From an uncultured Candidatus Saccharibacteria bacterium (GTDB lineage Bacteria; Patescibacteriota; Andersenbacteria; UBA10190): a DNA stretch of 64,000 nucleotides. The stretch is taken from contig CAYJQW010000004.1 of the NCBI GenBank assembly GCA_964372635.1, positions 840 through 64,839 of the forward strand, read 5' to 3'. The notes under the pieces were generated by a model. It saw only the letters and a program-made list of their open reading frames with translations. It was not told the origin of the DNA and made no database searches. A program made the translations under genes and the position numbers. Below, piece after piece: positions 6,723-23,463 of the stretch. How positions within the stretch are numbered: position 1 is the first letter of the stretch; each line of letters opens with the position of its first letter.

Positions 6723-9600
6723 TTATTTTTCGGTAAAGCCATCGCCAAGGCAGTACTAGCAAGAGACATATTATTAGTGCGCTTACGGTTAAAAACTTGG
6801 CTTGAGTGATTGCTGATGATTCGTAACGGAATGAAACCACGTGTTTTCCGGAAGGCACTAGAGCAGCTTTAAAGATACTGAGGTCGGTAAAATATGGTGC
6901 TGGTTGGTCATCAATATAAGTAACCCACTGGGGGGTTGTAGCATCGGTCACGATGAGCCAGGCTACGTCGTCGGTCTCAACATCAACATCAACTTGTGTA
7001 TTTGAATAGAATGTAATCCTAGCTGTTCCTTGAGCTGGTTTTCCCTCAAGGCGCTCAACAACATCTGGCAGTCTTGTTCCTCCAATTAAGGCGATTTGGC
7101 TAGGGTCAAACTGGTCATCTTGTAATGCCGCTAAAACATGGTCAGGAGCCGGTTTGAACTTAAAATCACGCTGTAAAAAAGCCTTTGGATACGCTGCAGG
7201 ATTTTTGTAAAAACGGAATATTCGTTGATCTGATGCATATTCACCTATCGGTACGAAACCCGCATCTGGCATAAGATCCTCAATTCCCGGCGAAATTACC
7301 TGAGCCAGATGCGTCACCCCGGCGATATTAAATAATTGCCGCCGGCTTTCAAGAACGTGTTTAGAATCACCATCGTAAGGCTCACGATCATTAGCAAAAA
7401 AAGTTTCAATGAAATCTCGATAGGTGCGTATGGCTAAGGCACTAATCCAGCGAGCACTGCTGGCTTCGGCCGTGGCTTGCAAATGTCTCTCCAGCAGTAT
7501 CACATCGGCGTCAATGTCGGTCTTTTCTTGAGTAGGCAGGACAGTTACTCGTAACTCTTTTTGAGATCGGACTAATTCCACTGGACTAGGCTGATCAACT
7601 CTGACAATGTAAGCAGATAATTGACCAGGAATCTTGGTCAGAGCTAACGAGATAGCTGTCTTTTGACTACTGGTGAAAGATAAAACGTATTGTCCGTCGT
7701 CATCAATTGGCTCGCCGCTATCAAAACACAATGATAGCTTCTGGTCCACTAAGATATCTGAGGCTGTAATATTATGTGAGTCTATAGCTGGCTCAGATAT
7801 TGCCTTGTGCAACCCGACTGTAATGGCCTCGGACTTTGTGGAATCTGTTTCAGCTGGAATCGTAAAACAGGCGGGATTAGTCTTGATTTCAACTGGTTGA
7901 TAGATACTCAGATCCGGTGCAATAAATGGTGAGCGGGCAAATTCGAGACGAGGGATATCCGTTAGTAGCTCCGGACGACTGTATAACCGTGGTGGTAATT
8001 CTGATTCTTGGTTGGCCTGGCGGAGAAGTGACAAGAACGGAGAATCGAGTTGAACCGGTCGAGGTGTCAGAGGATTATAATTCCAACCAAGGTGTAGTAG
8101 GGTCACGGCGGTGACGAGCAAAACAACAACTTCGCCAAGCCTATAAAGACGGAAACTAATAAATATTATCAAGAACGGAATAACTAAGGCACCGACTATA
8201 GCCAGGAGCCAGCTTAAGTCAATAGACTGAATAATTCGTAACCATTGAATAGCGATCCGTGCATCCGTTTTGCTGAGAAAAAATGGCAAAAAAAGTAAAG
8301 CAGGCAAGGCCAAGCCTGTTAGAAAAATTCTTAACAGATGCCACCTTGACTTTCGCTTGTCACTGAAAAGATCACTTAGACCAAGACTGGCTAATAAGGC
8401 AATGCCAACATTAAAGAAAAAGACAAATCGTCCCGGATTGGCAACCGATGTTATAATTTTTTCTGCTACTAAATAGCGATAGATGGGCGAATTAACTCCA
8501 AGAGCAAACAGGATACCTATAACAACGAGAAATAAAGCCGCAATCCTCAGTGGTCTTCTAATTCGCCATGAGGCCAGGGCTGCCCCCGCCAAAAACAAAG
8601 GAAGAACGCCAACAAATGCGGCCAGCTCTTGAAAACCTTTAGCACCCCAGTAGTTATCATGATCACCAAAAAAGTAGGGCAGGACCAGCGTAATGGCGTG
8701 GCTGGGGGGGTAACTGAAATCAAACAGTTCTGATTCAGGCAGAACGTCGCTTCGTTCGGTAAACGGTAAAAATTCATACAGTGGCAAAACAGCAAAAGAC
8801 GCTGTTGCCAAAGCAATGAGCGCTGCTAATAAAACTAGAGACAAGACACGAAAGTTATATCCGTTTAAAATCCAATGGACAACAGTCGTCAATGTCTTGT
8901 TCTGCCTCAAGGCGGATTTTCCGCGATTGAAAGATTGGCCAATGAATGAAACTGAACCGATAATAGCCGCCAGCAATAGGTTGTAAAGTACTATCTGTGG
9001 TTGAGCTGATAAGGCCATCGTGGCTACCAGTAGACTCATGACAACGGCCCGGCGGATCGTGGGTCTCTCTAGAAAAATCTGAATGTTATAAAGGAGCCAC
9101 GGCAAAATCATTGTTGCGGTATAGAAGTTGACATGGTTTAAATGACCAATATTGAAACCAGAAAAAACGAATATAATAGCCCCCAAAGCGGCCGGCAGTT
9201 GTGGCAGCCTCCAGTGGCGCAAGAAAACAAACATGCCCAATAAGCCGAGCGCGAAGTAAGTCACTATAGAGATCTGCAAAACATCAAATGGAGCTATCTG
9301 TAAGGCACGAAGCACGACATGCACTGGTGTGAAAAAACCAAGTTGTCCCCAGGCAATAAGTGGTTGTCCAAATCCGAAATAATTACTCCAGACTGGCAGT
9401 TGAAGAGCCTGTTGACTTTGGGCATAAACTACTTCCAGGGGGTAGTAAATAGCCTTGAGGTCATCAAGCCAATAGGCTTGACTGCCGATTAAAACACGGC
9501 TAAAAAAAATAAACCATGTTAGTACTAGCATCATGAGGCCCCACCCATTGCCCGTTAAGTATGATTTTATTCTTGGCATTGTAATTCGCTGCCACCGCAT
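6709..9600 (-). CDS. YfhO-like large membrane protein (GT-C-like), function unassigned
   Basis: 963-aa ORF. The N-terminal ~500 aa are highly hydrophobic with many TM helices. A large hydrophilic central/C-terminal domain and a final C-terminal TM helix (ITQAKFLTVSALIICLLLVL) follow. This topology is typical of YfhO-family proteins. It overlaps the upstream pilin-like gene by ~30 bp. Confidence 0.45.
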   Translation of the reverse strand: MRWQRITMPRIKSYLTGNGWGLMMLVLTWFIFFSRVLIGSQAYWLDDLKAIYYPLEVVYAQSQQALQLPVWSNYFGFGQPLIAWGQLGFFTPVHVVLRALQIAPFDVLQISIVTYFALGLLGMFVFLRHWRLPQLPAALGAIIFVFSGFNIGHLNHVNFYTATMILPWLLYNIQIFLERPTIRRAVVMSLLVATMALSAQPQIVLYNLLLAAIIGSVSFIGQSFNRGKSALRQNKTLTTVVHWILNGYNFRVLSLVLLAALIALATASFAVLPLYEFLPFTERSDVLPESELFDFSYPPSHAITLVLPYFFGDHDNYWGAKGFQELAAFVGVLPLFLAGAALASWRIRRPLRIAALFLVVIGILFALGVNSPIYRYLVAEKIITSVANPGRFVFFFNVGIALLASLGLSDLFSDKRKSRWHLLRIFLTGLALPALLFLPFFLSKTDARIAIQWLRIIQSIDLSWLLAIVGALVIPFLIIFISFRLYRLGEVVVLLVTAVTLLHLGWNYNPLTPRPVQLDSPFLSLLRQANQESELPPRLYSRPELLTDIPRLEFARSPFIAPDLSIYQPVEIKTNPACFTIPAETDSTKSEAITVGLHKAISEPAIDSHNITASDILVDQKLSLCFDSGEPIDDDGQYVLSFTSSQKTAISLALTKIPGQLSAYIVRVDQPSPVELVRSQKELRVTVLPTQEKTDIDADVILLERHLQATAEASSARWISALAIRTYRDFIETFFANDREPYDGDSKHVLESRRQLFNIAGVTHLAQVISPGIEDLMPDAGFVPIGEYASDQRIFRFYKNPAAYPKAFLQRDFKFKPAPDHVLAALQDDQFDPSQIALIGGTRLPDVVERLEGKPAQGTARITFYSNTQVDVDVETDDVAWLIVTDATTPQWVTYIDDQPAPYFTDLSIFKAALVPSGKHVVSFRYESSAITQAKFLTVSALIICLLLVLPWRWLYRKIIISS

Positions 9601-10085
9601 ACTCGATACAAGACTCGTTCGCCGTCGTGTAAAATACGATAATAAAATTTTCTTTTCTCGTCCTCATCAAACATCCGTTCATCCGTATATTGCGCTTCTA
9701 GTTGCGCTTCCAGGTAATAACCAGAGACATTACCTGCGGTAACATCAGTTGCACAATAGACATAGGCGCGTCCTGATCTTTCACGGGTATCGTGAGGAAT
9801 AGCGTTTATATGCTGGCCCTTCAGCAGTGGCGAGTTGTTACCAAAAAGCCAGCTAGTTTGATCATCAGTGCTGGTACATATTTCACTTAAAGGCGGTGTC
9901 CCGTAGTTATCAAATTCATTGTTATATAATTCAAGGGCATGTTTTAAGTCTGTAATATCCTGACGGCGAAGATCATCGCGAACGGCAATTCTAGAGGAAA
10001 TAATACTGGGAATAAGAAATAAAAGAAGTAAGCCGAAGATCGTTGTCGCTGCCGCATACTCAAGCTGAATTCTTGTTAGATACAT
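9567..10085 (-). CDS. type IV pilin/pseudopilin-like protein with noncanonical prepilin signal
   Basis: ATG at 10085 with a stop 4 codons upstream. The N-terminal hydrophobic helix LEYAAATTIFGLLLLFLIPSII has a Glu at +5 relative to a possible cleavage after MYLT, but no Gly at -1. RDDLRRQDITDLKHALELYNNEFDNYGTPP follows, closely matching the DA.R..DL.QI..ALELYY.DNG.YP motif of CPR/Gram-positive-type pilins. Four Cys in the C-terminal part are consistent with a pilin disulfide domain. Confidence 0.5.
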   Translation of the reverse strand: MYLTRIQLEYAAATTIFGLLLLFLIPSIISSRIAVRDDLRRQDITDLKHALELYNNEFDNYGTPPLSEICTSTDDQTSWLFGNNSPLLKGQHINAIPHDTRERSGRAYVYCATDVTAGNVSGYYLEAQLEAQYTDERMFDEDEKRKFYYRILHDGERVLYRVCGGSELQCQE

Positions 10086-11752: not shown

Positions 11753-14173
11753 ATGCAAACTTTAGGGAACGCTTGGTGGAAATACATATTGCGTTGGGCA
11801 AAGCTGCCTTATTTTTGGCCAACTCTCATTTGTTTCGTTTTAGGTACGGCTTATTTTTTATCACCGGTCTATATGGAACGAGAAATACTGGCTCCTTACA
11901 ACGATGAAGCCCGCGTTGGTTTTGGCAGTACGAGGACGGTAGCCCAAGAATTTATTTCTCCCCATAAATTGCAAGCAATTGTAATTCCAATTGAGAGAGA
12001 ACCGAATATTGATGGACCACTTATACTGCACGTTCGTACGGAACTGAAAGGTCCAGATCTTATAACAAGCACCTTATTTTCTTTCACAGGTGGTCAGGCC
12101 AGATTTGACTTTAGTAAAATGTTGAATGGCGGGACTAAATATGTGTGGATTCTAGAAGCTCCAAACAATTTCGATAAAACGTCTTGGGTCTATTTGGAAC
12201 ATGATGAAACAGCCTATAATCATGGTAATTCGTACATTAAGGATACTCAATTAACTGGTAACTTTGGTTTTACTCTAATCCAAAGGAAATATCGTGGAGC
12301 ACACTTGTTTGAGCAATTATTGGCGGTAACACCATTCTGGGAATGGCGATCAGCCATTGTCGGCACAGTGGTGGCAAGTCTAGTCGCAACCTACTACAGC
12401 GCATTGAGAAAACCACACCATCGTGTTTCCTGGCTTCTCATATTGATATTAGCAACATTTGTCATTCATATTTTCTTGGCGCAGAGACTGCCAGCTGTTA
12501 CAGATGAGGGAGCATATCTTCAGGATGCCCAACAGGCGCAGCTGACATTCTTGCCCTTTCGAGATTATTTAACGAAAGGACCACTTTTTATTGGTCTACT
12601 GGCATCGTGGCAAAAATTATTTGGTTATGACTTGTTTACCGGTCGACTTCTTTCAGCTTTCATCTGGGCATTGGCTGTTTACTTAACGGCTATTTTTGGG
12701 CGCATCATTGATTTAAAAGGCTGGTATTATATCGCCGCCTTTGCGATGTCTGTACTTCCGGCAGCAGTTTCATTGACCACACCTATGCTCCTGCAAAGCA
12801 TGAGCACCGTTGTTGTGCTGGCTGGCCTCATTTTAGTCTTAAGAGGAGTCAAAGGTGATCATCTTGGCATGCTGATTTTTGGGGCATTATTACTTGCCGG
12901 TGGTTATCTTGTTCGAAGCAGCAGCCTTGTCCTTGTTATTACTGGGACAATCGCCATTATTTTGTATGGCCGACATCGCATAAAGGCCCTTATTACATAT
13001 CTTGCAACATATTTTCTATTACTCCTAATTATTTTTGCGATCAGTGTCAATGCAATTGGCATTGAACGAACCGCTATCATGTTTAATTTAGAAGCCTTTA
13101 TAATTTCTGGGCAAAGATCATCAACAGCCAGTGAGACTCGCGAACCAATCATTCGCCAGCTGACAAGTGACACTAGAACACTCTGGCGGAGCGCCCCGTG
13201 GTTTATGGCTGCGCTTGTGATGGTTCCCCCTATTATACTGCGGAAATTAGGTAAGAAGTTAAGAATAGTTGGACTAGTCGTGTGGCTTATTGTGCTCATC
13301 AATGTGTTCTTGCATCTGCGCGATATGCAATTCCTATTACCGAAATCCTTCCCTGTTACTACGGCGAGCATGGTAATTATTGTATTCGGGTTGCCAATAC
13401 TGTGGACATTATTTAGTTTTCAAGGGAAAAATCCCAATCGGCCTAAACCTGAAAAGACAATCCAGGTAAAATCATGGTTTACCAAACTGTCTTTTGACTT
13501 GAAGCTGGTCCAAAATTGGCGTGCCCTGCTTTTATTAGTTGCCTGGCTGGTCTTGCTGACAGGTCTATACTACTTTTGGCAGAATTTTCGTCAAAATTAT
13601 TTGATTGAATTTTTACCGCCACTTGCGTTACTCTCTGCTTGGGTCAGTGCTCAAGTAGCTGAAATATTTCAGTCTCTTACATTTCATAGGACCAAGAGGT
13701 TTATAACAGCTGGACTATGTGGTTTGCTAGCCATGTCAATCTATCAAGGTTATTGGCTGGCCGCTTCATATCCTCACACCGGTACCATTGATATAACTTC
13801 CCTCCAGGCTGTTTCCACTTTGGTAAGAAAACATGTCGAACCTGGTCAGGCTGTCTTTACCGCACAGCCACTTATAACTGCCGAGGCTTATCGTCCGATT
13901 GTTCTAGGTTACTCCCATCCAGGCTGGTATTTAAGTGAGCGGGTAGGTGAAGTATCATCATCGCTGCGGTCGATTTATTTTATGGAACCTCTTGCTCTCA
14001 CGTCATATCTCGAAACTACAGTCCAGTTTGTTTTGACTGATGATCGGACTCAAGAGGTATATTTTGATCAATACCCCGAACGTCAAGAAATCCTAAAGAA
14101 TAATTTTTTATTACTTGGCGAACTAAGTGATGGTCGTACGGAGGAACCGATGCGTTTATATAAAAAGATGTAA
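11753..14173 (+). CDS. GT-C-like polytopic membrane glycosyltransferase (paralog family A)
   Basis: ATG at 11753; 806 aa. It has an N-terminal soluble ~200 aa, then ~12 TM helices. The loop motif VTDEGAYLQDAQQAQLTFLPFRDYLTKGPLF and the C-terminal block FTAQPLITAEAYRPIVLGYSHPGWYLSERVG are shared with the 23525..25291 protein. Confidence 0.5.
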   Translation: MQTLGNAWWKYILRWAKLPYFWPTLICFVLGTAYFLSPVYMEREILAPYNDEARVGFGSTRTVAQEFISPHKLQAIVIPIEREPNIDGPLILHVRTELKGPDLITSTLFSFTGGQARFDFSKMLNGGTKYVWILEAPNNFDKTSWVYLEHDETAYNHGNSYIKDTQLTGNFGFTLIQRKYRGAHLFEQLLAVTPFWEWRSAIVGTVVASLVATYYSALRKPHHRVSWLLILILATFVIHIFLAQRLPAVTDEGAYLQDAQQAQLTFLPFRDYLTKGPLFIGLLASWQKLFGYDLFTGRLLSAFIWALAVYLTAIFGRIIDLKGWYYIAAFAMSVLPAAVSLTTPMLLQSMSTVVVLAGLILVLRGVKGDHLGMLIFGALLLAGGYLVRSSSLVLVITGTIAIILYGRHRIKALITYLATYFLLLLIIFAISVNAIGIERTAIMFNLEAFIISGQRSSTASETREPIIRQLTSDTRTLWRSAPWFMAALVMVPPIILRKLGKKLRIVGLVVWLIVLINVFLHLRDMQFLLPKSFPVTTASMVIIVFGLPILWTLFSFQGKNPNRPKPEKTIQVKSWFTKLSFDLKLVQNWRALLLLVAWLVLLTGLYYFWQNFRQNYLIEFLPPLALLSAWVSAQVAEIFQSLTFHRTKRFITAGLCGLLAMSIYQGYWLAASYPHTGTIDITSLQAVSTLVRKHVEPGQAVFTAQPLITAEAYRPIVLGYSHPGWYLSERVGEVSSSLRSIYFMEPLALTSYLETTVQFVLTDDRTQEVYFDQYPERQEILKNNFLLLGELSDGRTEEPMRLYKKM

Positions 14174-14176: not shown

Positions 14177-15016
14177 TTATTCATTGCTGGACTTAATTTT
14201 GTGAGCTACTAGCCCCCATTCATAGCCACGTTTTAGCCGGAAAAAATGATCGAGCCGTGAGATTAGTCTTAAGAGAGGATAGACGATACGCAGATACCCC
14301 AGCAGCTGACGGTTTCCATTAACATCACCTTCAGAAGCTGGTGAAAGCGCTAAATTGTAACCCGCTGTTTTCTGTTGGCTACGATTTTTTAAAATATAAA
14401 ATCCGTTGTAAGCCAATTCAACCATCTCGGTAAAAAAGAAAGAAAATAGGTCAAAATCCTTTACTATTAGTCCGGCTGAGTCAGTTAATTTTTGTAGGGT
14501 GGACTTTGAAAATCCCTCAACAACGTGACCATGAGCAGCTTTATCAATACCGAATACATTTTCTGCAAAGTGTCTCCAGAAATATGGCCGACCATCATCA
14601 GCTGGTGTGGTTAAGATCACAACACCATCTGGGGTAAGTAATTCGGACACCCGACGCATAAAAGAGGCCGGATCTTGAACGTGCTCTATGACGTCGAAGA
14701 TGGTCACGATTTTAAAAGAACTCCGCGACAGTAAGGGATTATATATATCAATTTCATGGACCAAGCCATGAACAATCTTTCTCGTCTCGGCCGCCGCCGC
14801 GGCATCTGTTTCAGTAAATTCCCAAGTACCACCAAGACGCTCCAGAAGAACACTAAGCGTACCAACACCACTACCAATATCCAAACAAGGACAATCCTTA
14901 GCTTTCTTTTGTAGAGCTTGAAGCACCTTGGGTTTTGCCCACAACCATTTTTCTTTTTTCCTCACACTGACTGCAAAAACACGTAGCTGCCACGACTCAT
15001 TTTGTGCTGTTTTCAT
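14177..15016 (-). CDS. class I SAM-dependent methyltransferase
   Basis: Motif I CLDIGSGVGTLSVLL and LTPDGVVILTTP. Its start overlaps the stop of the upstream GT39-like gene by 4 bp (15013..15016). Confidence 0.75.
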   Translation of the reverse strand: MKTAQNESWQLRVFAVSVRKKEKWLWAKPKVLQALQKKAKDCPCLDIGSGVGTLSVLLERLGGTWEFTETDAAAAAETRKIVHGLVHEIDIYNPLLSRSSFKIVTIFDVIEHVQDPASFMRRVSELLTPDGVVILTTPADDGRPYFWRHFAENVFGIDKAAHGHVVEGFSKSTLQKLTDSAGLIVKDFDLFSFFFTEMVELAYNGFYILKNRSQQKTAGYNLALSPASEGDVNGNRQLLGYLRIVYPLLRLISRLDHFFRLKRGYEWGLVAHKIKSSNE

Positions 15017-16515
15017 AACTTATTGACTTTGAAGATCCAAACATAAGGTAGTCCGTTAATTTTAATAAGATGTTCCGGTTTTGGTTTTCCCGGGCCAAGA
15101 TAACTGGCCATCATTTCAGTTTCGGCAGCTCCAGGGCCGCGCTCAAACATGGAGCGGTACAAAATAATATAATCAGCCGAATTATTATCAGTATACGATA
15201 GTGAATCAGAAGGACCGGCATAGAAATAAGCAAAGACACGGTTATAGTAACTATGTACTTTAGCCTGTGGCGCTTGCTCAGAAATCCAAGCGGCGGCACT
15301 TTCTAAACCCTCGCCCCAGCCAAGCTTATGATCGGATTCTATTGGGTACAGTTTGTTATATTGAGCTAAATAATATGGATGGAGCCTAACATCATCAGCG
15401 GCTAACCACATTATTAATATCAGCGTAATCAGGTAGCCTACCATTCTCGACACATATAAACTATTGGCGAGCCAATGAATTATTATTCGCAAGCCGAATA
15501 CGCCTGTTAAAATAAATGTGAGTAGGGTGAGCAGTATATACCGGTCACTTTTATCGGAACTGAAGCTTAGAATGATCGCATAGACAATGCCGGCTAGTAA
15601 AAGCCAAAATACGGTTCGGCCCATTTTTTTATATCGTCGCAGACCCAAGCCAATAAGACCGAAAGGCACAAGAATGGTAGTGATCGGTGTAAGTCGGAAT
15701 AATCCATCACGGGCGTAATACCACCAGCGAGAAGTTGTCTCTAGGCTGCGTGTACCCTGGGCATGCAGAGTAAGTCTTTCTGAAACGTAGTTATACACGC
15801 TATCTGCTCCCAGCCAAAGGGCTGGCCATAAAATATACGTAGCTAAGATTATTATTGCGATCCAGAGCAGTATCATGTTGATGCCAGATCGCCAGGAAAA
15901 ACGAAGTTGTAAGAAAGTGACCGTGAGAATAACCAGAGCAGTAGGTATGAGTATAATGGCAAACATTTTTGTAAGCAGGCTCCCGGCGGCCAGGATAGCA
16001 CTGGCAGCCAGATAATGTTTATTCAAGGGTTCTTTGTGATGCAACGGTTCTAGGGCTGCCAATAAGGCAACTAGACTTGCCAGATAAAAAAGGGCAAGCA
16101 GGGCATCAGTATGCGCCAAGCGACTGTGAGCTATAAGAAAGGGGTCAAGAGCCAGGAAGAAACCGGCTGTCAAACCCCAGCGGCTGCCCCACAGCCTTGT
16201 TAGAAAATAAGTTATTATTAATATCAAAATACTGGTTGCGACAGCCACTGCTGCTTGATCTGCGGCTAAGGAGTGCCACCGATTACTTAATCCGATTAGC
16301 CAGGCTGTTGTCACGCCAGGCTGACCAGCCACGAGAGTTTTATCAAACTGGCCGGTTGAAAAAGCTTGCATAAAGCTGGCACCACGGTTTTGCCACAAGG
16401 GTTCATCGACAGTTAGAATTGATCCTAGTTGAAAGAGCCGAGGACTAAATACAGCCAAGAGAAATAGTGCTATGACGATCAGTCGATTAGACTGAGACGG
16501 ATTAGAGGCAGTCAT
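15013..16515 (-). CDS. ArnT/PMT-type (GT39/GT83-like) membrane glycosyltransferase, polyprenyl-phosphate-sugar dependent (paralog family B)
   Basis: 500 aa, 11-13 TM helices. The first extracytoplasmic loop after TM1 carries the DE motif typical of ArnT/PMT-family GT-C enzymes (LGSILTVDEPLWQNRGASFMQAF). It is paralogous to 21967..23463. The stop overlaps the upstream GT2 start (16512..16515). Confidence 0.6.
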   Translation of the reverse strand: MTASNPSQSNRLIVIALFLLAVFSPRLFQLGSILTVDEPLWQNRGASFMQAFSTGQFDKTLVAGQPGVTTAWLIGLSNRWHSLAADQAAVAVATSILILIITYFLTRLWGSRWGLTAGFFLALDPFLIAHSRLAHTDALLALFYLASLVALLAALEPLHHKEPLNKHYLAASAILAAGSLLTKMFAIILIPTALVILTVTFLQLRFSWRSGINMILLWIAIIILATYILWPALWLGADSVYNYVSERLTLHAQGTRSLETTSRWWYYARDGLFRLTPITTILVPFGLIGLGLRRYKKMGRTVFWLLLAGIVYAIILSFSSDKSDRYILLTLLTFILTGVFGLRIIIHWLANSLYVSRMVGYLITLILIMWLAADDVRLHPYYLAQYNKLYPIESDHKLGWGEGLESAAAWISEQAPQAKVHSYYNRVFAYFYAGPSDSLSYTDNNSADYIILYRSMFERGPGAAETEMMASYLGPGKPKPEHLIKINGLPYVWIFKVNKL

Positions 16516-17207
16516 TTATGGCGTGCAAAACGGCGTCCTCGTAGTCGGTAGGCAAACAACATGGCCAAGGACTTAAAGCCATCGCGGTATGTTATTTTTT
16601 TACCCTCAGCATGCGTACGAGCGCGATAATTTGTAGGCAACTCCTTAATCTTGAATCTGTGATCCAAAATCTGAAGCGTGATTTCCATATCGAACTCAAA
16701 GCCAGTTTTCTCAAGGTGTAAAACTTTTACAACTTCTTTTGTAAACACTTTGTGACCGGTTTCAACATCTGTTAATCGTTGCCCAAGTAGAATGTTCGTT
16801 AGTATTGTCATAGCTTTATTCTCTAGACGCTGAATAAAGTATAATTGGTTTTGCTGCAAAAAACGGGAACCATAAACGACACTTGTCTCGCCGCGTAAGA
16901 TGGGGCTTATCAGACTTGGAATCACTGTAGGGTCGTATTCGCAATCATCATCCTGAACGACGATAATGTCGCCGCTGACATAACGTAAACCAGTCTTAAT
17001 TGCTCCACCCTTGCCAGTATTATGATCATGCAAAATAACTTTTACGTTTTTTAAACGCTGTAAGATTTCCCGACTACCGTCAGTAGAAAAATCATCGACG
17101 GCTATTATTTCATAAGGGATAGGATATTTTACAGCCTGAATCTGATTCACGGCTTGCTCTATAAAATCCCTATCGTTGTATACGGGAATTAGAATTGATA
17201 GTTTCAT
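16512..17207 (-). CDS. GT2 polyprenyl-phosphate sugar synthase (DPM1/ArnC/GtrB-like)
   Basis: KLSILIPVYNDRDFIEQAV, IAVDDFSTDGS and VVQDDDCEYDP give the GT-A DxD signatures. The small soluble form (231 aa) resembles dolichyl/undecaprenyl-phosphate sugar synthases. It is translationally coupled to the GT39-like gene downstream. Confidence 0.75.
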   Translation of the reverse strand: MKLSILIPVYNDRDFIEQAVNQIQAVKYPIPYEIIAVDDFSTDGSREILQRLKNVKVILHDHNTGKGGAIKTGLRYVSGDIIVVQDDDCEYDPTVIPSLISPILRGETSVVYGSRFLQQNQLYFIQRLENKAMTILTNILLGQRLTDVETGHKVFTKEVVKVLHLEKTGFEFDMEITLQILDHRFKIKELPTNYRARTHAEGKKITYRDGFKSLAMLFAYRLRGRRFARHK

Positions 17208-18180
17208 GGGTTACATGCTCACGCCAATAGGACATAAGATCAGGAATAGTTTTATTAAGAAAAGATATTTTTGGCTGCCAACCAGTAGCGAGACGAAACT
17301 TAGTGTTGTCCCCAATGATAATACCACCATCAGTTGGGCGGGGTCCGGCCGGATCCAGTTTCAATTCAATCGGAGATATTTCTGATCTGACTAACATCGT
17401 CTCATATATTTCTTTAATTTTAGTGCCCCGACCTGAGCAAACGTTATAAACTTCTCCTGGCTGACAAAACTCAACTGCTGCCACATAGGCCCGAGCAATA
17501 TCACGTACGTCTGTAAAATCGCGGACGGCAGATAAATCCCTATATGTCACTTTTGCTGGTACCAGACCCTGTTCAATTAAGGCTATGGTATGGGCCAAGT
17601 GGCTGTCACCAAAGGCTGTTGGTCGACGCGGTCCCGTATGATTGAAGACCCGTAATCTAATTATATTTAGTTGGTAGGTGTGCCAGTATTGAAACCCAAG
17701 ATAATCCTGACCAATCTTTGAAACTGCGTAGGGGGAGCCGGGTAGCAACTCGGCACTTTCCTGAATCGGCAACTTGTGTCGTTTGCTTAAGCCATATTCC
17801 TCAGACGACCCCGGGATAATAATTACGGGGTTGTAGGTTATGGTTTTTAACTGACGCAGTGTTTCGAGAATATTAGCTTGCCCGAGTATATTTGTTATAA
17901 GGGTGGCTTGCGGTGATTCCCATGACGTTCGCACATAACTTTGCGCAGCTAAATGCCAAATGACGCTTGGCCTAACCATCTCAAGCAGGGAAAATACAGA
18001 CGATTCATCGGTAATATCAACCTCATGAAGTTGAATCTGATCTTTAATATGCTGAATGTTCTGAAGTGACGCCTTAGGCTTTCGCGTACCATGAATTCGA
18101 TATTCAGAGTGTTCAGATAGTAATAGTTCAGCCAAGTGACTGCCCGTAAATCCCTCAATACCAGTTATCAATATATTCAT
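17170..18180 (-). CDS. NAD-dependent nucleotide-sugar epimerase/dehydratase (extended SDR family)
   Basis: N-terminal Rossmann motif ILITGIEGFTGSHL (GxxGxxG) and catalytic YAVSK (YxxxK). The track start at 18243 would overlap the next gene. ATG is verified at 18180 (MNILITG) and is preceded by GAGAGAG. Confidence 0.75.
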   Translation of the reverse strand: MNILITGIEGFTGSHLAELLLSEHSEYRIHGTRKPKASLQNIQHIKDQIQLHEVDITDESSVFSLLEMVRPSVIWHLAAQSYVRTSWESPQATLITNILGQANILETLRQLKTITYNPVIIIPGSSEEYGLSKRHKLPIQESAELLPGSPYAVSKIGQDYLGFQYWHTYQLNIIRLRVFNHTGPRRPTAFGDSHLAHTIALIEQGLVPAKVTYRDLSAVRDFTDVRDIARAYVAAVEFCQPGEVYNVCSGRGTKIKEIYETMLVRSEISPIELKLDPAGPRPTDGGIIIGDNTKFRLATGWQPKISFLNKTIPDLMSYWREHVTHETINSNSRIQR

Positions 18181-18205: not shown

Positions 18206-19840
18206 TTAAAGCCAACGCAATGTGTGAACAGGCACAATTTCAAGAACGCCAGTGTCCCAAACTCTTTCTTTTTTTACCTCTGTCTTCACAATCGTATTGT
18301 CGACTGTCAACCGGCGGACTATCTCAAGAATACGGGGATCATCAGGTGTCTCAATTAAATAGACAATCTTGTACTGGCGTAACAGGTCAATTAGATCTTC
18401 GGGGTCCGCAGCTGGATACGTATTTAAGTAAAAACCCAGCTGCTGATTGCCTAGCTCTGTACCGGACTCTATTGTTCCAAAATAAAGAGTTGCAACAGCT
18501 TGATCAGTCGTTAAAGCAACAGGTTTAGACTCATGTGCTAAAGAAACTATCGATCGATACAAAGCATAGCCACGATAATTCTCTTCCCACGCACGTCCGG
18601 TTGCTTGTCGCATAAGGGTCTGGCTTTCCGAGCTCACTATCCAAATCGCCGCAGTCAGCAATGTTACGGCTAAGGCCTTCGGCCAAATCCAACTTTTCGA
18701 TTGAATATATAATCGATATGTCCCGGACAGTAAAGCGCTAAAGCCCGCGGCTGCAGTAAAATAATATACTGCAGATAAGGGAGCGACGTAGCGACTATAT
18801 ACCCACCACCATGACAGTAGTAATGTGTATCCAGTACCAGCGATAATAATCGGTAAACCAGCTTTTCCGTTTCTTATGATTATCCAAGGCACTCCAAGGA
18901 TCGCCAAGATGCTGAGCCACCAAGTCGTTGATAATAATATTCGGTTTGCCGCACCTGATTGCGGATTTTGACTGATCTCAAAGTTGGGGATTGACCAAGC
19001 TTTGCTGAAACCGGCACCATTGAGCATTAGTAAACCATTGATCGGGATTTGTTTAATCTCACCAAAGCCTCCATCAGCGGAGATTGCATCTGCCACATAT
19101 GGCAAATTAGTGATTGAACCGTGAATTGCAAGATGCGCTGGTATCCAGGCAATGATTGCTGCTACTGGAATCACCGACGCTCTCAAAACTTGTCGCCATG
19201 AAAGCCTGATCCACAAAAGCGGCCATAAAAGGCTGGCCACAATTAATCCTTCGTAACGTGTGAATATGAGGCAAGTAGTTACAACACCAAGCCAGAACAA
19301 CTGACGTCGGGACGATTTCGGTTTCAAAATAACTATTGTGACACAGTACACTGTGAGTACCATGAAAAAAACGAAGGTACTATCAGCTAATGGCCGAATG
19401 GCATTCAGCATTAGTAGCGGATCAAAAAGTGACAAGCCTAGGAATAGAAGTAGAGCGGCTCGATAAATTTTTAAGCGCCTACCCAGTGCATAAAGCGTTC
19501 CAACGCTAATGGCCGAGGCAGTTAGACTTATTATTACGCTCATTGGTATATATTCAATTGGGAATAATCGCGAGATTAGTATTAGAATACCGTACATTGG
19601 CAAGCGTTTCTCATGAGGTGGATATGAAAGATAGCCCAAGTTTTTGGCAATATGTTGGAAATTAAAGGCATCGCCAGCAGGCATAATACGACGTTCGAAG
19701 GCTATCGGGGCACGTACCAGCAGGGCAAAGATAATCAATAAAATTATGATTATGCTATCAATTTGGTAGGCAGTCACAGATTTAGTGTAGTTTGGTGCAC
19801 CTAACACGTACAGACGATCATAACCAGTGATGGCCGCCAA
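18206..19840 (-). CDS. polytopic membrane protein, GT-C-like, function unassigned
   Basis: 544 aa with ~12 TM helices in the first 420 aa. The soluble C-terminal ~120 aa are likely extracytoplasmic. Confidence 0.45.
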   Translation of the reverse strand: MAAITGYDRLYVLGAPNYTKSVTAYQIDSIIIILLIIFALLVRAPIAFERRIMPAGDAFNFQHIAKNLGYLSYPPHEKRLPMYGILILISRLFPIEYIPMSVIISLTASAISVGTLYALGRRLKIYRAALLLFLGLSLFDPLLMLNAIRPLADSTFVFFMVLTVYCVTIVILKPKSSRRQLFWLGVVTTCLIFTRYEGLIVASLLWPLLWIRLSWRQVLRASVIPVAAIIAWIPAHLAIHGSITNLPYVADAISADGGFGEIKQIPINGLLMLNGAGFSKAWSIPNFEISQNPQSGAANRILLSTTWWLSILAILGVPWIIIRNGKAGLPIIIAGTGYTLLLSWWWVYSRYVAPLSAVYYFTAAAGFSALLSGTYRLYIQSKSWIWPKALAVTLLTAAIWIVSSESQTLMRQATGRAWEENYRGYALYRSIVSLAHESKPVALTTDQAVATLYFGTIESGTELGNQQLGFYLNTYPAADPEDLIDLLRQYKIVYLIETPDDPRILEIVRRLTVDNTIVKTEVKKERVWDTGVLEIVPVHTLRWL

Positions 19841-19982
19841 TTAAATATCATTTAGTATGCTAATAAAACGGTCAGTGTCAAAGGAAAATTACCCTTTGAC
19901 TAGACCCATCGCGTTACATAATTATTTGTATTTCTCTTTTTTCAGTTGACGTGTCGTTATTAAGCACCGCAATCTAAAAGAT

Positions 19983-21188: not shown

Positions 21189-21926
21189 TTAAGCTCGACG
21201 CCCAACTCCTAAAATGTTTTTGGTAAAAATTGTCGTATCGGTGCGTCCGTACAATTTGAATATCAAGTACCATAACTTATTCAATAACGCCGCCGCTACT
21301 CGAGCTGTTACATTCAACAGGATGTTAGGCGTAACGTAAATATCGGTTCCATAAATTTTAACTTTGTCAAAATCGGCCATGAGTAGAGTTTGCTTCAAAC
21401 TATGCTGGTCGAAGCCAACCTCATGGGTGATATCAATATACCTACCATCATTACCCAGCAGAGGATTACCCATATTCGGCACTTTAACCAGAAAGACGCC
21501 GCCAGGTTTCAGGTTGGTTCTGATCAACTCAAGCATGTGCCACATAGTTGGCTTAACCTGATGTTCTAAGACGTCATTTAGAATGAATGCATCGACCGGG
21601 GCCGTGAGATTTTCCAGATAAGCAGTTATTTCTGACTTGAGTACAGGTAATTCTTTCCTCTGACAAAAAGCAATGACCTCACTACCCACGTCCACGCCAA
21701 GTATATTCTTATAGCCAGACCGCCTCAAAAAATAAAGAAAATGACCCAGACCGCTACCCAAATCGACAATGCGAGCATCTCGATTTGTTGGCAAATGCGG
21801 TAAATAATTCCGGCGAAAATAACGTTCCTGAATGCTAAACTCGGTATCCCCTTCACGAGCACCACCAAAATGCTGGGATAAGTATTTTGCATATGTCTGA
21901 CTTACATCCATCGGTGATTGTCGCAT
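21189..21926 (-). CDS. class I SAM-dependent methyltransferase
   Basis: Motif I IVDLGSGLGHFLYFL and LKPGGVFLVKVPN. Confidence 0.75.
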   Translation of the reverse strand: MRQSPMDVSQTYAKYLSQHFGGAREGDTEFSIQERYFRRNYLPHLPTNRDARIVDLGSGLGHFLYFLRRSGYKNILGVDVGSEVIAFCQRKELPVLKSEITAYLENLTAPVDAFILNDVLEHQVKPTMWHMLELIRTNLKPGGVFLVKVPNMGNPLLGNDGRYIDITHEVGFDQHSLKQTLLMADFDKVKIYGTDIYVTPNILLNVTARVAAALLNKLWYLIFKLYGRTDTTIFTKNILGVGRRA

Positions 21927-21966
21927 GAAGATTATTCTGACTGATTCATGCTACATTGTCGACATT

Positions 21967-23463
21967 ATGAATCGAAGCACACTGATAGTCTTGGTAGGTA
22001 TCTTTCTAGTAGCATTGGCACCTAGGACCATGCAGCTGGGTGCTTTTTTGTCCCCGGATGAACCTCGATGGCTTCTTAATACGCAGGAATTTGTGCTTGG
22101 ACTTAAGTCAGGTGATCTGTCGCGCCTTTATCAACAGCCACACCCGGGAGTTACCACTATGTGGCTGGCGTCACCAGTTATTGAATATTCATGGGCCGTC
22201 CGTCGTCTGCCCGCTGCGATCGCCATATCTTTCCTCCTGACAGCTACCACTACTCTCATGATGCAACTATGGGGGCGTGGTCTTGGTGGTAGTATCGGCT
22301 TTCTTTTGGCAATTAATCCCATCTTTATCGCCCACTCTCGCGTTCTGGCCATGGATGCCTTGCTGAGTATTTTTCTGCTCCTTTCTATTGTCGCCTTACT
22401 GCTGTGGTGGCGCGATAGAAAACAGTGGCAGCTGGCCATATCGGCTGTTAGCGGCGGGCTAGCCGTACTTTCCAAGATCGTTGGTGTTATAATTTTTCCC
22501 TATACAATAGCCATATTTACTTGGTTCTTGATTTTTCGTCAGTTATCACTCAAACGAGGTACAAAATCAGGGTTGCTTTGGCTTATTATATTTTTTCTCA
22601 CGATAATAATTGGACTGCCAACGATTGTGGTTGATTTTGAGCGTGTGGCTCAGGGCACTCAAGAATTCTTCGCAACGGAGCATTATAGTCAAACTGTGCA
22701 CGCTCTGGGCCCACTTTGGTATCCGCAAGCCCTACTAATCTGGACCACGCCACTGCACTGGCTTGGTTTACTTTTATTACCAACCCTAGTCTGGTCTAAG
22801 TGGCGCTATCGTCGCGATGTCGTATTACTTTTTCTTTTCGCTGCCGTTTTCTTCTTAACAGTTCAGTATTCTATTAAAAAAGGAGACCGCTATTTGTTGC
22901 CAGACTTTCTAATTTTTGATGTCATCACAGTTCTCTCAATTTCCGCAGCTATAAATTTTCTCTATACTCGCTTGACTTCTTTTCGCGGAAGAACATACGT
23001 CGCCAGAGGATTCTTTCTTATTATCTTTTGTCTTGTTGTTTGGCAGGTCATGATGGTAGTAACACTTCATCCTTATACCTTGGCATATCGGAACCCGCTG
23101 TGGCGCCCGATTGCCCTTGGTCGAACTATGGGTTGGGGGGAAGGTCTCGATCTAGCTGCACAGTATTTGAATTCAAAACCTCAAGTCGAGCAGATGCTGG
23201 TCGCTGCCTACTATGAAGGGCCGTTTAGCTATCGTTTTAAAGGTCACGTTACTTCGGCGGAAAGATTAGCTAAGGAGACCATATCTGATATTGGCGCTGA
23301 TTATGTTGTTTTGTATCGAACTATGATTGGCCGTGATCAGGAGCGCTGGGAAACAAAAGTTTTAGCTCAATTTTCTCATCAAGAGCCGGAGCATGTAGTT
23401 GTATTAAACGGAGAGGATTACGCTTGGATTTATAATACCAGTCAAATATCTAAAGACGACTGA
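21967..23463 (+). CDS. ArnT/PMT-type (GT39-like) membrane glycosyltransferase (paralog of 15013..16515)
   Basis: ATG at 21967 (MNRSTLIVLVGIFL). The track start at 21925 would overlap the divergent methyltransferase start. GAFLSPDEPRWLLNTQEF matches the DEP loop motif of the 15013..16515 protein. The C-terminal YAWIYN resembles YVWIFK in the paralog. Confidence 0.6.
   Translation: MNRSTLIVLVGIFLVALAPRTMQLGAFLSPDEPRWLLNTQEFVLGLKSGDLSRLYQQPHPGVTTMWLASPVIEYSWAVRRLPAAIAISFLLTATTTLMMQLWGRGLGGSIGFLLAINPIFIAHSRVLAMDALLSIFLLLSIVALLLWWRDRKQWQLAISAVSGGLAVLSKIVGVIIFPYTIAIFTWFLIFRQLSLKRGTKSGLLWLIIFFLTIIIGLPTIVVDFERVAQGTQEFFATEHYSQTVHALGPLWYPQALLIWTTPLHWLGLLLLPTLVWSKWRYRRDVVLLFLFAAVFFLTVQYSIKKGDRYLLPDFLIFDVITVLSISAAINFLYTRLTSFRGRTYVARGFFLIIFCLVVWQVMMVVTLHPYTLAYRNPLWRPIALGRTMGWGEGLDLAAQYLNSKPQVEQMLVAAYYEGPFSYRFKGHVTSAERLAKETISDIGADYVVLYRTMIGRDQERWETKVLAQFSHQEPEHVVVLNGEDYAWIYNTSQISKDD

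What the first reader, a model, noticed from the sequence alone, without database searches (positions are those of the whole stretch)
15013..18180. Arn/Ppm-like three-gene module: SDR sugar-nucleotide epimerase/dehydratase -> GT2 polyprenyl-P-sugar synthase -> GT39-like transferase, translationally coupled
The three minus-strand genes overlap by 4 bp at two junctions (16512-16515 and 15013-15016). They encode the same logic as ArnA/ArnC/ArnT (lipid A Ara4N modification) or Ppm1/Pmt (protein O-mannosylation). A nucleotide sugar is modified, transferred to a polyprenyl phosphate by a DPM1-like GT2, then delivered to an extracytoplasmic acceptor by an ArnT/PMT GT-C enzyme. The trailing methyltransferase (14177..15016) is coupled too, suggesting a methylated sugar is transferred.
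Basis: partly seen in the sequence, partly recalled or inferred. Interest (0 to 1): 0.55.

Follow-up and report, generated by a model that had tools for sequence, protein, structure and literature searches.

The report
Lipid-linked sugar glycosylation operon, CPR bacterium
This is a real, tightly packed operon in an uncultured Patescibacteria (Andersenbacteria-like) genome that most likely modifies a GDP-sugar, loads it onto a membrane lipid carrier and transfers it to the cell surface; it is a recognisable variant of a well-known bacterial scheme, not a new kind of system.

Summary
Three minus-strand genes lie at 15013-18180, with ATGA overlaps at 15013-15016 and 16512-16515. The SDR and GT2 genes also overlap, by 38 nt.

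The unit is larger than reported: GT-C (544 aa), SDR, DPM1-like GT2, GT-C (500 aa), methyltransferase.

- **SDR:** it belongs to the GDP-sugar clade. It is 38% identical to a GDP-heptose 4,6-dehydratase and 36% to Rmd. It carries the dehydratase-type SSE/YxxxK/GPRR residues and is not ArnA-like.
- **GT2:** its best solved relative is a dolichyl-phosphate mannose synthase.
- **GT-C enzymes:** both model confidently as GT-C folds. The 500-aa one has an invariant Asp37-Glu38 after the first helix.
- **Fusions:** in 13 relatives the GT2 is fused to the N-terminus of this GT-C, which ties the two steps together and fixes the topology.
- **Synteny:** SDR-GT2 adjacency holds in 8 of 8 loci that carry the cassette. 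The methyltransferase is optional.

The closest known analogue is the Streptococcus mutans Pgf operon (GT-A, epimerase, two GT-C). The sugar, flippase and acceptor remain unknown. I call it a new variant of a known kind, of moderate interest.

The parts
19854..19881 (-). Promoter-like site (TTGACA-16-CATACT, 10 of 12) in the 142-nt gap upstream of the first gene of the operon
   Evidence: One search gives the consensus match only. One search shows this is the only gap of 100 nt or more next to the block.
18206..19840 (-). First gene: 544-aa polytopic membrane protein, a lineage-restricted GT-C-fold glycosyltransferase (here 'GT-C-544') with invariant Gly56-Asp57 after TM1
   Evidence: The Pfam PMT hit is only 21 bits, below its cut-off. 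The AF2 model has pLDDT 89. Foldseek against PDB gives STT3, ArnT, ALG12 and AftB at E of 1e-7 to 1e-5, prob 1.0. The word-index search found 28 homologues, all unnamed or 'hypothetical'. The full library holds 42 cluster representatives at E<=1e-30. It lies next to SDR-GT2 in all 7 related loci that carry the cassette, directly upstream in 6 and inverted just downstream in L088.
17170..18180 (-). Extended SDR of the GDP-sugar 4,6-dehydratase / 4-reductase clade (336 aa)
   Evidence: GDP_Man_Dehyd scores 226 bits. The gmd equivalog scores 126 against a cut-off of 415. The best PDB matches are Rmd 2pk3 (192 bits) and GDP-heptose 4,6-dehydratase 7us5 (191 bits). The motifs GSSEEYG, PYAVSK and FNHTGPRR match the dehydratases; both solved reductases have GPGQ.
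17170..17207 (-). 38-nt overlap between the end of the SDR gene and the start of the GT2 gene
   Evidence: The same overlap is seen in L002 and L087 (38 nt), L086 (32 nt), and L001 and L088 (4 nt).
16512..17207 (-). Soluble DPM1-like GT2 (231 aa, no TM helix), the predicted polyprenyl-phosphate sugar synthase
   Evidence: PF00535 scores 119 bits. The top NCBIfam hits are AglJ, PpgS and Dol-P hexose transferase, all below their cut-offs. The best PDB match is Pyrococcus DPMS 5mlz at E=1e-23, ahead of ArnC at 1e-11. The motifs PVYND, VDDFSTDGS, QDDDCEY and YGSRF are conserved. No TM segment was found.
16512..16515 (-). ATGA stop/start overlap between GT2 and GT-C; in 13 homologues the two are one polypeptide
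15013..16515 (-). GT-C-fold glycosyltransferase (500 aa, 'GT-C-500'), PMT_2 family, with invariant Asp37-Glu38 after TM1 and a small C-terminal alpha/beta domain
   Evidence: PMT_2 scores 35 bits against a cut-off of 26. Invariant residues are R26, D37, E38, W41, R44, H135, D137, K183 and R325. The AF2 model has pLDDT 95. Foldseek gives STT3, ArnT, ALG9/12 and Pmt4 at E near 1e-7 and TM near 0.5.
15013..15016 (-). ATGA stop/start overlap between GT-C-500 and the methyltransferase
14177..15016 (-). Class I SAM methyltransferase (279 aa, no TM helix), an optional last gene of the operon
   Evidence: Methyltransf_23 scores 60 bits. The best PDB match is only 28 bits. It is present after GT-C-500 in L001, L002, L086 and L087, and absent in L003, L004, L005, L007 and L088.
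11753..14173 (+). Convergent neighbour: 806-aa GT-C-like protein, paralogue of the PMT_2 protein at 23525..25291. It is the most conserved neighbour of GT-C-500.
   Evidence: phmmer of the 806-aa protein against the 588-aa protein gives E=1e-45, and the 588-aa protein hits PMT_2 at 41.5 bits. It is adjacent and convergent in L001-L008, L022, L086 and L087, and separated by one inverted gene in L088.

Best explanation
The block 14177-19881 is one five-gene operon of an Andersenbacteria-like Patescibacterium. It encodes an extracytoplasmic glycosylation module of the 'polyprenyl-phosphate sugar synthase plus GT-C' type.

Proposed sequence of events:
1. In the cytoplasm the SDR acts on a GDP-activated manno-configured sugar (GDP-mannose, or less likely GDP-heptose). 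It most probably acts as a 4,6-dehydratase, perhaps one that also reduces C4. The product is a 6-deoxy or 4-keto-6-deoxy GDP-sugar.
2. The soluble DPM1-like GT2 sits on the cytoplasmic face of GT-C-500, and is fused to it in relatives. It transfers the sugar to polyprenyl phosphate.
3. The lipid-linked sugar is flipped by an unidentified route.
4. On the outer face GT-C-500 and GT-C-544 transfer it, using the Asp/Glu of their first external loop. The acceptor is most likely a cell-envelope glycopolymer made by the surrounding 64-kb glycan island, or else a surface protein.
5. Where present, the methyltransferase methylates the sugar on the cytoplasmic side.

What is shown: the gene structure, the family and fold assignments, the catalytic motifs, the fusions and the synteny. 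What is inferred: every chemical step, the identity of the sugar, the flipping and the acceptor.
For: **Operon structure.** The genes overlap by 4, 4 and 38 nt, with a 25-nt gap and one upstream promoter-like site.

**GT2.** It is closest to DPMS, AglJ and PpgS.

**GT-C enzymes.** Both model as GT-C folds with conserved loop-1 acidic residues.

**Fusions.** Thirteen homologues are single 699-729-aa GT2::GT-C proteins. The linker between the GT2 C-terminal helix and TM1 is no more than about 20 residues. One of them, P0012, carries an unrelated GT2, so fusion happened at least twice.

**Synteny.** SDR is followed by GT2 in 8 of 8 loci (the window, L001, L002, L005, L013, L086, L087, L088). GT-C-500 follows directly in 6 of them. 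By matching contig lengths, 16 of 31 close SDR orthologues share a contig with a GT-C-500 homologue, and 15 share one with a GT-C-544 homologue.

**SDR.** It has [ST]SE...Yx3K, the GMD fingerprint of Vogel et al. 2022 (PMC8987622). It also has the GP(R/K)R motif shared by three solved dehydratases and replaced by GPGQ in both solved Rmd reductases. The RPxD and RDF nucleotide-sugar-binding motifs are retained.

**Analogous cassette.** In related locus L006 the gene order is methyltransferase, GT-C, GT2, C-methyltransferase, SDR.
Against: - No experiment of any kind supports this.
- No GtrA, SMR or MATE flippase gene lies in or next to the block.
- The window has no gmd, manC, heptose-pathway or 4-reductase gene, so the supply of substrate and the fate of a 4-keto product are unexplained.
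- The SDR scores equally well against a reductase (2pk3) and a dehydratase (7us5). The dehydratase call rests on a motif seen in only five solved enzymes.
- The module-linked SDR subgroup has its own substitutions (FGDSHvAH, GPRPTDGG) at positions that contact GDP in GMD, so the nucleotide could differ.
- In L003, L004, L007, L008 and L022 the GT-C-500 orthologue has no SDR-GT2 cassette beside it, so GT-C-500 does not depend strictly on this donor.
- All NCBIfam equivalog cut-offs are missed by wide margins.
Confidence: 0.7

Rival explanations
1. The SDR is a plain Rmd-type GDP-4-keto-6-deoxy-D-mannose 4-reductase, as JGI annotates its orthologues. It makes GDP-D-rhamnose from the product of a separate Gmd encoded elsewhere in the genome. 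The rest of the pathway is as in the main explanation.
For: - The best PDB hit is Aneurinibacillus Rmd 2pk3 (192 bits, 36% identity).
- JGI names the orthologues 'GDP-4-dehydro-6-deoxy-D-mannose reductase'.
- Rmd 2pk3 also has the SSE motif.
Against: - Both solved Rmd enzymes have GPGQ where the query has GPRR. All 120 homologues keep the final Arg (117 are [RK]R). The three solved dehydratases have RR or LR at that position.
- The query is slightly closer to the GDP-heptose dehydratase 7us5 (38% identity, fewer indels).
- No Gmd gene lies in 64 kb of glycan genes.
- NCBI names the same family 'GDP-mannose 4,6-dehydratase'.
Confidence: 0.2
2. The system is a protein O-glycosylation machine of the Pgf or actinobacterial Ppm1/Pmt type. 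On this reading the GT-C enzymes glycosylate Ser/Thr of secreted or membrane proteins, for example the conserved pseudopilin-like 172-aa neighbour, rather than a glycopolymer.
For: [quoted passage not shown]
- The GT2 hits the PgfS model at 63 bits.
- GT-C-500 is in the PMT_2 family and has a DE motif.
- A 172-aa single-pass protein with a marginal GspG-like N-terminus (E=0.023) is conserved beside the GT-C block in about 15 loci.
Against: - The whole window is a polysaccharide-type island: many GT4 and GT2 genes, three MOP-family flippases, a TagF-like glycerophosphotransferase and a polysaccharide deacetylase.
- PgfM1 and PgfM2 are YfhO-type GT-C enzymes, not PMT_2.
- The fold matches (TM about 0.5 to STT3, ArnT, ALG and Pmt4 alike) give no acceptor information.
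Confidence: 0.3
3. The SDR acts after the GT2, on the polyprenyl-phosphate-linked sugar. This would resemble ORF13 of the Citrobacter youngae O2 three-component system, or DprE2 of mycobacteria.
For: Kelly et al. 2024 (PMC11127046) show an SDR epimerase inside a three-component system that is proposed to convert undP-ribofuranose to undP-xylofuranose in the cytoplasm. The module-linked SDR subgroup has altered residues at GDP-contacting positions.
Against: The SDR is 36-38% identical over its full length to GDP-sugar enzymes. It keeps the RPxD and RDF substrate-domain motifs and the full dehydratase catalytic set. It has no membrane-binding segment.
Confidence: 0.07
4. The genes are merely co-located members of a large glycan island. 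On this reading the GT2 is an ordinary cytoplasmic glycosyltransferase acting on a pyrophosphate-linked oligosaccharide, and the GT-C-fold proteins are polymerases or ligases unrelated to it.
For: - Every curated equivalog cut-off is missed.
- The GT-C-500 orthologue occurs without the SDR-GT2 cassette in several genomes.
- Overlapping genes are common in this window.
Against: There are two independent GT2::GT-C gene fusions with very short linkers. The best structural relative of the GT2 is a Dol-P-mannose synthase. GT2 and GT-C recur together with tailoring enzymes in L006 and in some Chloroflexota loci.
Confidence: 0.08

Closest known systems
Streptococcus mutans Pgf operon (pgfS-pgfM1-pgfE-pgfM2)
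   Same: It has the same four kinds of component in one operon: a GT-A/GT2 lipid-sugar synthase, an SDR sugar-nucleotide enzyme and two GT-C transferases acting outside the membrane (PMC12041528). The window's GT2 hits the PgfS model at 63 bits.
   Different: PgfE is a UDP-HexNAc 4-epimerase, whereas this SDR is of the GDP-sugar dehydratase/reductase clade. PgfM1 and PgfM2 are YfhO-type, whereas these GT-C enzymes are PMT_2-type or a lineage-specific family. Pgf has no methyltransferase and no GT2::GT-C fusions. The host is a Firmicute, not a member of the Candidate Phyla Radiation (CPR).
Gtr-type three-component glycosylation systems (GtrA/GtrB/Gtr*; GacI/GacL; CsbB/GtcA/YfhO; C. youngae ORF12/14/15)
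   Same: A polyprenyl-phosphate sugar synthase plus a GT-C transferase with its catalytic acid in an external loop. An auxiliary SDR is documented in the C. youngae O2 system (PMC11127046).
   Different: No flippase gene is present in the block. The synthase has no TM domain of its own and is anchored, or fused, to the GT-C. The SDR looks like a nucleotide-sugar enzyme rather than a lipid-sugar epimerase.
Arn pathway (ArnA/B/C/D/T/E/F) of lipid A modification
   Same: The general order is the same: an SDR step, a GT2 transfer to undecaprenyl phosphate, then a GT-C transfer outside the cell.
   Different: The ArnA model scores 33 bits against a cut-off of 777 and ArnC 53 against 529. ArnT gives no hit for GT-C-500. 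There is no formyltransferase, aminotransferase, deformylase or ArnE/F. The organism belongs to a group without lipid A (background knowledge).
Actinobacterial Ppm1/Pmt and mycobacterial PPM- or DPA-dependent GT-C networks
   Same: A soluble DPM1-like catalytic domain depends on, or is fused to, a membrane partner. M. tuberculosis Ppm1 is a two-domain fusion (background knowledge). Many GT-C paralogues draw on lipid-monophosphate sugars (PMC3485146 abstract).
   Different: In Ppm1 the membrane partner is an Lnt-like domain, not the consuming GT-C. No SDR or methyltransferase is involved. The donor there is unmodified mannose.
[quoted passage not shown]
   Same: They are the closest solved relatives of the SDR (38% and 36% identity). 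The SSE/YxxxK catalytic set is shared, and the GPRR motif is shared with the dehydratase.
   Different: None of these enzymes is known to feed a polyprenyl-phosphate sugar synthase. Their products go to cytoplasmic Leloir glycosyltransferases (PMC10680097; background knowledge).

Membership tests
Three-component extracytoplasmic glycosylation system (GtrB-like synthase + flippase + GT-C) | DPM1/GtrB-like GT2 polyprenyl-phosphate sugar synthase | tested here: met
   PF00535 scores 119 bits. The best PDB match is DPMS 5mlz at E=1e-23. The top NCBIfam hits are AglJ, PpgS and Dol-P hexose transferase, all below their equivalog cut-offs. DxD-type and GSR motifs are present. Activity was not tested.
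Three-component extracytoplasmic glycosylation system (GtrB-like synthase + flippase + GT-C) | GT-C-fold transferase with a conserved acidic residue in the first extracytoplasmic loop | tested here: met
   The AF2 models have pLDDT 95 and 89, and Foldseek gives prob 1.0 to STT3, ArnT, ALG and Pmt4. D37-E38 and D57 are invariant just after TM1. N-terminal GT2 fusions imply an N-in topology.
Three-component extracytoplasmic glycosylation system (GtrB-like synthase + flippase + GT-C) | Dedicated small flippase (GtrA/SMR/MATE) encoded with the other two | tested here: not met
   There is no such gene in or beside the block, and no gap large enough to hide one. The related locus L001 has a 63-aa GtrA_DPMS_TM fragment about 5 kb away. 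MOP-family genes lie 27-45 kb away in the window.
Three-component extracytoplasmic glycosylation system (GtrB-like synthase + flippase + GT-C) | Polyprenyl-monophosphate sugar as the actual donor | not testable with these tools
   This needs lipid extraction or an in vitro assay.
Arn (Ara4N lipid A modification) pathway | ArnA-type UDP-GlcA decarboxylase/formyltransferase, ArnB aminotransferase, and ArnC and ArnT equivalogs | tested here: not met
   ArnA NF005998 scores 33 against 777 and ArnC NF007986 scores 53 against 529. The ArnT model gives no hit for GT-C-500. The window has no DegT-type aminotransferase or formyltransferase.
GT39 protein O-mannosyltransferase (PMT/Pmt) | Match to the PMT family model and the loop-1 DE motif | tested here: inconclusive
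   The DE motif is present and invariant. Only PMT_2 (PF13231) passes its cut-off; PF02366 is not hit by GT-C-500 in my scan, though it is precomputed for some homologues. The fold match to Pmt4 (TM 0.54) is no better than to STT3 or ArnT. There are no MIR domains.
[quoted passage not shown] | Score above the equivalog cut-off | tested here: not met
   126 bits against a cut-off of 415, and about 31% identity to E. coli Gmd.
[quoted passage not shown] | [ST]SE...Yx3K catalytic fingerprint and the Arg of the NHxxP(R/L)R motif | tested here: met
   The query has GSSEEYG, PYAVSK and FNHTGPRR. The fingerprint is from PMC8987622 Table 1. The importance of the Arg (Arg185 of P. aeruginosa Gmd) is recalled from King et al. 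2009, which was not held.
Rmd (GDP-4-keto-6-deoxy-D-mannose reductase) | Resemblance to the two characterised Rmd enzymes, including their active-site region | tested here: inconclusive
   The best overall PDB hit is Rmd 2pk3 (192 bits). However, both Rmd structures have GPGQ where the query and all its homologues have GP[RK]R, and P. aeruginosa Rmd has SGD instead of SSE. Only two Rmds have been characterised (bioRxiv 10.1101/854612).

The most novel reading that the evidence does not exclude
The cassette makes a lipid donor not yet described: a polyprenyl-phosphate 6-deoxy (or 4-keto-6-deoxy, possibly methylated) manno-hexose or heptose derived from a GDP-sugar. The synthase and its consuming GT-C would form one physical complex, covalently fused in many relatives. 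That complex would couple synthesis on the inner face to use on the outer face without a separate flippase gene. Interchangeable cassettes of this kind (this one, the C-methyltransferase cassette at 23.5-28.2 kb, and the L006 operon) would then diversify the surface glycans of CPR bacteria.
Probability: 0.22. Interest if true: 0.65.

Novelty: new variant of a known kind. Interest (0 to 1): 0.4.

Why it matters
Patescibacteria (CPR) are abundant, mostly uncultured episymbionts, and their envelope chemistry is essentially unknown. Their surface presumably mediates attachment to hosts.

This locus shows that an Andersenbacteria-like genome devotes a 64-kb island to glycan assembly. The island holds at least five GT-C-type enzymes from three sequence families.

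One donor-making cassette is tied to its transferase by gene overlap here and by gene fusion in relatives. The natural GT2::GT-C fusions are ready-made single-polypeptide targets for biochemistry and cryo-EM. They could address a general open problem: how lipid-linked monosaccharides get from the synthase to the outward-facing GT-C active site.

If the SDR really is a GDP-sugar 4,6-dehydratase feeding a DPM1-like enzyme, the donor would be a deoxy-sugar lipid of a type I do not know to have been described.

Otherwise the module is an ordinary instance of a widespread scheme.

Tried and rejected
- **hhalign of single sequences against my alignments.** GT-C-544 and the 806-aa protein against the GT-C-500 profile gave probabilities of 25% and 3%. 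The 806-aa protein against the GT-C-544 profile gave 0.4%. These were uninformative. The fold of GT-C-544 was settled by AlphaFold and Foldseek instead. The 806-aa protein was settled by its paralogy to the PMT_2 protein at 23525..25291.
- **PDB sequence searches.** GT-C-500, the 806-aa protein and the methyltransferase gave nothing useful.
- **Primary papers.** King et al. 2009 (PMC4381037) and Xiang et al. 2022 (PMC9623766) are not held. The Arg185 argument therefore rests on my own alignment plus memory of the abstract.
- **Naming the source organism.** The exact look-up of the window's GT-C found no contig on record. The cluster look-up gave no names or accessions. The taxon is inferred only from the nearest homologues.
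- **Supply and flipping genes in the window.** I looked for a Gmd, ManC, heptose pathway, 4-reductase or GtrA and found none.
- **A second SDR near the block in relatives, as a possible Gmd partner.** It is GalE-like, not Gmd-like.
- **Neighbours of more distant SDR homologues.** They sit among GT4, aminotransferase and radical-SAM genes with no Gmd beside them, so context did not settle dehydratase versus reductase.
- **Literature on glycosylation or GT-C enzymes in Patescibacteria/CPR.** The searches found nothing relevant.
- **The idea that the 4-nt overlaps are in themselves remarkable.** Rejected, because they recur elsewhere in the window.

Full report
**Observation**

The ATGA stop/start overlaps at 15013-15016 and 16512-16515 are in the sequence.

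- The SDR and GT2 genes also overlap, by 38 nt at 17170-17207.
- The ATG at 18180 is the likely SDR start, because orthologues are 323-339 aa and begin MNILITG-like.
- The methyltransferase gene 14177..15016 follows, as stated.
- Four-nucleotide overlaps also occur at 31623 and 48921. They are normal for this compact genome, which is 43% GC with almost no intergenic space. They indicate an operon rather than anything rare.

**True extent**

A fifth gene, 18206..19840 (544 aa), ends 25 nt upstream of the SDR start. The only real gap, 142 nt, lies upstream of that gene and carries the best promoter-like match on this strand, TTGACA-16-CATACT at 19881-19854. The unit is therefore GT-C-544, SDR, GT2, GT-C-500, methyltransferase. 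It converges on an 806-aa gene at 11753..14173.

**Host**

Homologues of all three tested proteins come almost only from Patescibacteria/CPR metagenome bins. The named ones are mostly Candidatus Andersenbacteria. The five proteins are singletons at 90% identity.

**SDR**

- Pfam gives GDP_Man_Dehyd at 226 bits. No NCBIfam equivalog is reached; gmd scores 126 against a cut-off of 415 and ArnA 33 against 777.
[quoted passage not shown] Classical Gmds follow at about 105 bits, and UDP- and dTDP-sugar enzymes score lower.
- JGI labels the orthologues Rmd and NCBI labels them Gmd. Only two Rmds have ever been characterised, and several Gmds are bifunctional (bioRxiv 10.1101/854612).
- I aligned the solved enzymes with 120 homologues.
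  - The query has GSSEEYG and PYAVSK, which is the [ST]SE...Yx3K fingerprint given for Gmd in PMC8987622 Table 1.
  - It also has FNHTGPRR. At that position the three dehydratases read PRR or PLR, and both reductases read GPGQ.
  - All 120 homologues keep the final Arg.
  - From memory of King et al. 2009 (not held), this Arg (Arg185 of P. aeruginosa Gmd) was proposed as the Gmd-specific determinant.
- Identity is 38% to the heptose dehydratase and 36% to Rmd.
- I therefore favour a 4,6-dehydratase, possibly one with reductase activity. This rests on five structures.
- The RPxD and RDF substrate-domain motifs are kept.
- The module-linked subgroup, however, has its own FGDSHvAH and GPRPTDGG signatures at positions that touch GDP in Gmd.
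- The window has no Gmd, ManC, heptose-pathway or 4-reductase gene.

**GT2**

It is 231 aa with no TM segment.

- PF00535 scores 119 bits. The top NCBIfam hits are AglJ, PpgS, Dol-P hexose transferase and PgfS, all far below their cut-offs.
- The best solved relative is Pyrococcus dolichyl-phosphate mannose synthase (5mlz, E=1e-23), ahead of ArnC and GtrB (about 1e-11).
- The family motifs PVYND, VDDxSTDGS, QDDDCEY and YGSRF are conserved.

**GT-C enzymes**

*GT-C-500*
- It passes the PMT_2 cut-off.
- In 64 homologues the invariant residues are R26, D37, E38, W41, R44, H135, D137, K183 and R325.
- Its AlphaFold model has pLDDT 95 and pTM 0.94.
- Foldseek matches only GT-C(A) enzymes (STT3, ArnT, ALG9/12, Pmt4, PglB, AglB) at E near 1e-7 and TM near 0.5, with no clear nearest family.
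- D37-E38 sit ten residues after TM1 (helix 8-27).

*GT-C-544*
- It has only a sub-threshold PMT hit. The word-index search found just 28 homologues, all 'hypothetical'. The full library holds 42 cluster representatives at E<=1e-30.
- It nonetheless models at pLDDT 89 and matches the same GT-C set. G56-D57 after TM1 are invariant.

*The 806-aa neighbour*
- It is a paralogue (E=1e-45) of the PMT_2 protein at 23525..25291. GT-C-500 is a paralogue (E=1e-57) of 21925..23463.
- The window therefore has at least five GT-C enzymes from three sequence families.

**Evidence that the genes work together**

- *Fusions.* Thirteen of the GT-C-500 homologues are 699-729-aa proteins with PF00535 at the N-terminus. 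Twelve carry an orthologue of this GT2, which is 65% identical in L001. The GT2 C-terminal amphipathic helix is joined to TM1 by no more than about 20 residues. One of the thirteen, P0012, carries an unrelated GT2, so fusion arose at least twice. Because the GT2 must see cytoplasmic nucleotide sugar, the fusions also fix the GT-C N-terminus inside the cell and the D37-E38 loop outside.
- *Synteny.*
  - SDR is followed by GT2 in all 8 loci that carry the cassette (the window, L001, L002, L005, L013, L086, L087, L088).
  - GT-C-544 lies beside the cassette in all of them. In the 7 related loci it is directly upstream in 6 and inverted just downstream in L088.
  - GT-C-500 follows directly in 6.
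- *Shared contigs.* Matching contig lengths suggest that 16 of 31 close SDR orthologues share a contig with a GT-C-500 homologue, and 15 share one with a GT-C-544 homologue.
- *Modularity.*
  - The most conserved backbone is GT-C-500, the 806-aa GT-C, a 172-aa protein and a 963-aa membrane protein.
  - In L003, L004, L007, L008 and L022 the SDR-GT2-GT-C-544 cassette is absent from the ±8 kb around it. L003 has another methyltransferase there instead.
  - The 279-aa methyltransferase is present in four relatives and absent in five.
- *A parallel cassette.* L006 has the gene order methyltransferase, GT-C, GT2, TylC3-type C-methyltransferase, SDR. The window's own second set lies at 23.5-28.2 kb: a GT-C, a DPM1-like GT2, a C-methyltransferase and a methyltransferase.

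**Mechanism**

The most likely mechanism is that the SDR modifies a GDP-manno sugar (inferred: 4,6-dehydration, with or without reduction). The GT2, docked on or fused to GT-C-500, loads it on polyprenyl phosphate. An unidentified step flips it. GT-C-500 and GT-C-544 then transfer it outside the cell.

I lean towards an envelope glycopolymer as the acceptor. The window is a polysaccharide island, with many GT4 and GT2 genes, two GT9 genes, three MOP flippases, a TagF-like enzyme and a deacetylase. Protein O-glycosylation remains a serious alternative.

**Comparison with known systems**

- The general class is the three-component glycosylation system. That class includes one case with an auxiliary SDR (PMC11127046).
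- The block is not an Arn system. It cannot be filed as GT39.
- The differences from known systems are four:
  - a GDP-sugar dehydratase-type SDR;
  - a synthase without its own anchor, which is fused to the consuming GT-C in relatives;
  - no flippase gene;
  - an optional methyltransferase.
- The host is also a CPR bacterium. I found no literature on such systems in CPR.

**Verdict**

This is a new variant of a known kind, of moderate interest (0.4).

Noticed in passing
window 9567..10085 (-); homologues in L001 13465-13986, L002 12860-13414 and about 12 more loci: A 172-aa protein with one N-terminal hydrophobic helix followed by 'AVRDDLRRQDITDLKHALELYNNEFDNYG', which looks pseudopilin-like. 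It has only a marginal GspG hit (E=0.023). It is conserved at 41-56% identity right beside the 806-aa GT-C in about 15 related loci, and is usually followed by the 963-aa membrane protein. It could be an acceptor or a partner of the GT-C enzymes.
   Followed up: partly
window 23525..28226; L006 2497..7932: There is a second donor-type cassette: a GT-C (588 aa), a DPM1-like GT2 (246 aa, AglJ/PpgS-like), a TylC3-type NDP-hexose C-methyltransferase (PF08421+PF08484) and another methyltransferase. In L006 the same kinds of gene form one overlapping operon together with an SDR. Such C-methyltransferases need an NDP-4-keto-6-deoxyhexose (background knowledge). The only dehydratase-like gene in the window is the SDR at 17170..18180.
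   Followed up: partly
protein P0012 (729 aa, homologue of window 15013..16515): This fusion protein carries a different GT2 domain on the same GT-C family. Its motifs are ALPTRNE and VVVDCDMTYPA, and it has a PF12804 hit. GT2::GT-C fusion therefore arose independently at least twice.
   Followed up: partly
window 17170..18180, residues about 188-196 and 279-287 of the SDR: The SDRs linked to this module form a subgroup with its own signatures: FGDSHvAH against Fv.SnFakq, and GPRPTDGG against RPsDvp in the wider Patescibacteria family. These positions contact GDP in Gmd, so the nucleotide or sugar specificity may be altered.
   Followed up: no
window 35685..36839 and 42128..43180 (-): Two GT9 (heptosyltransferase-family) genes occur in an organism that is not expected to make LPS. 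Together with the SDR's similarity to a GDP-heptose dehydratase, this is a lead towards heptose-containing glycans. No heptose-nucleotide pathway genes are in the window.
   Followed up: no
window 60849..63503 (+): An 884-aa protein combines a MOP/Wzx-type flippase domain (Polysacc_synt_3, residues 28-334) with a C-terminal GT4 domain (residues 703-823). I have not seen this flippase-glycosyltransferase fusion described.
   Followed up: no
window 1186..3138, 6709..9600, 28290..30404, 48921..51248, 53426..55231, 5097..6722: These are six further large proteins. Four have no Pfam family; 5097..6722 hits DUF2079 and 53426..55231 hits DUF6798. 1186..3138 and 6709..9600 are paralogues (E of 1e-9 to 1e-11), and the L001 homologue of the 963-aa protein has a faint YfhO hit. 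They may be additional GT-C-like enzymes, which would make the island unusually rich in them.
   Followed up: partly
window 3178..5043 (+); L002 30-1904, L086 1359-3233, L087 84-1961: A glutamine-dependent asparagine synthase (AsnB-like) gene is repeatedly found a few genes from the GT-C block in relatives. This suggests an amidation step in the glycan or cell-wall pathway.
   Followed up: no
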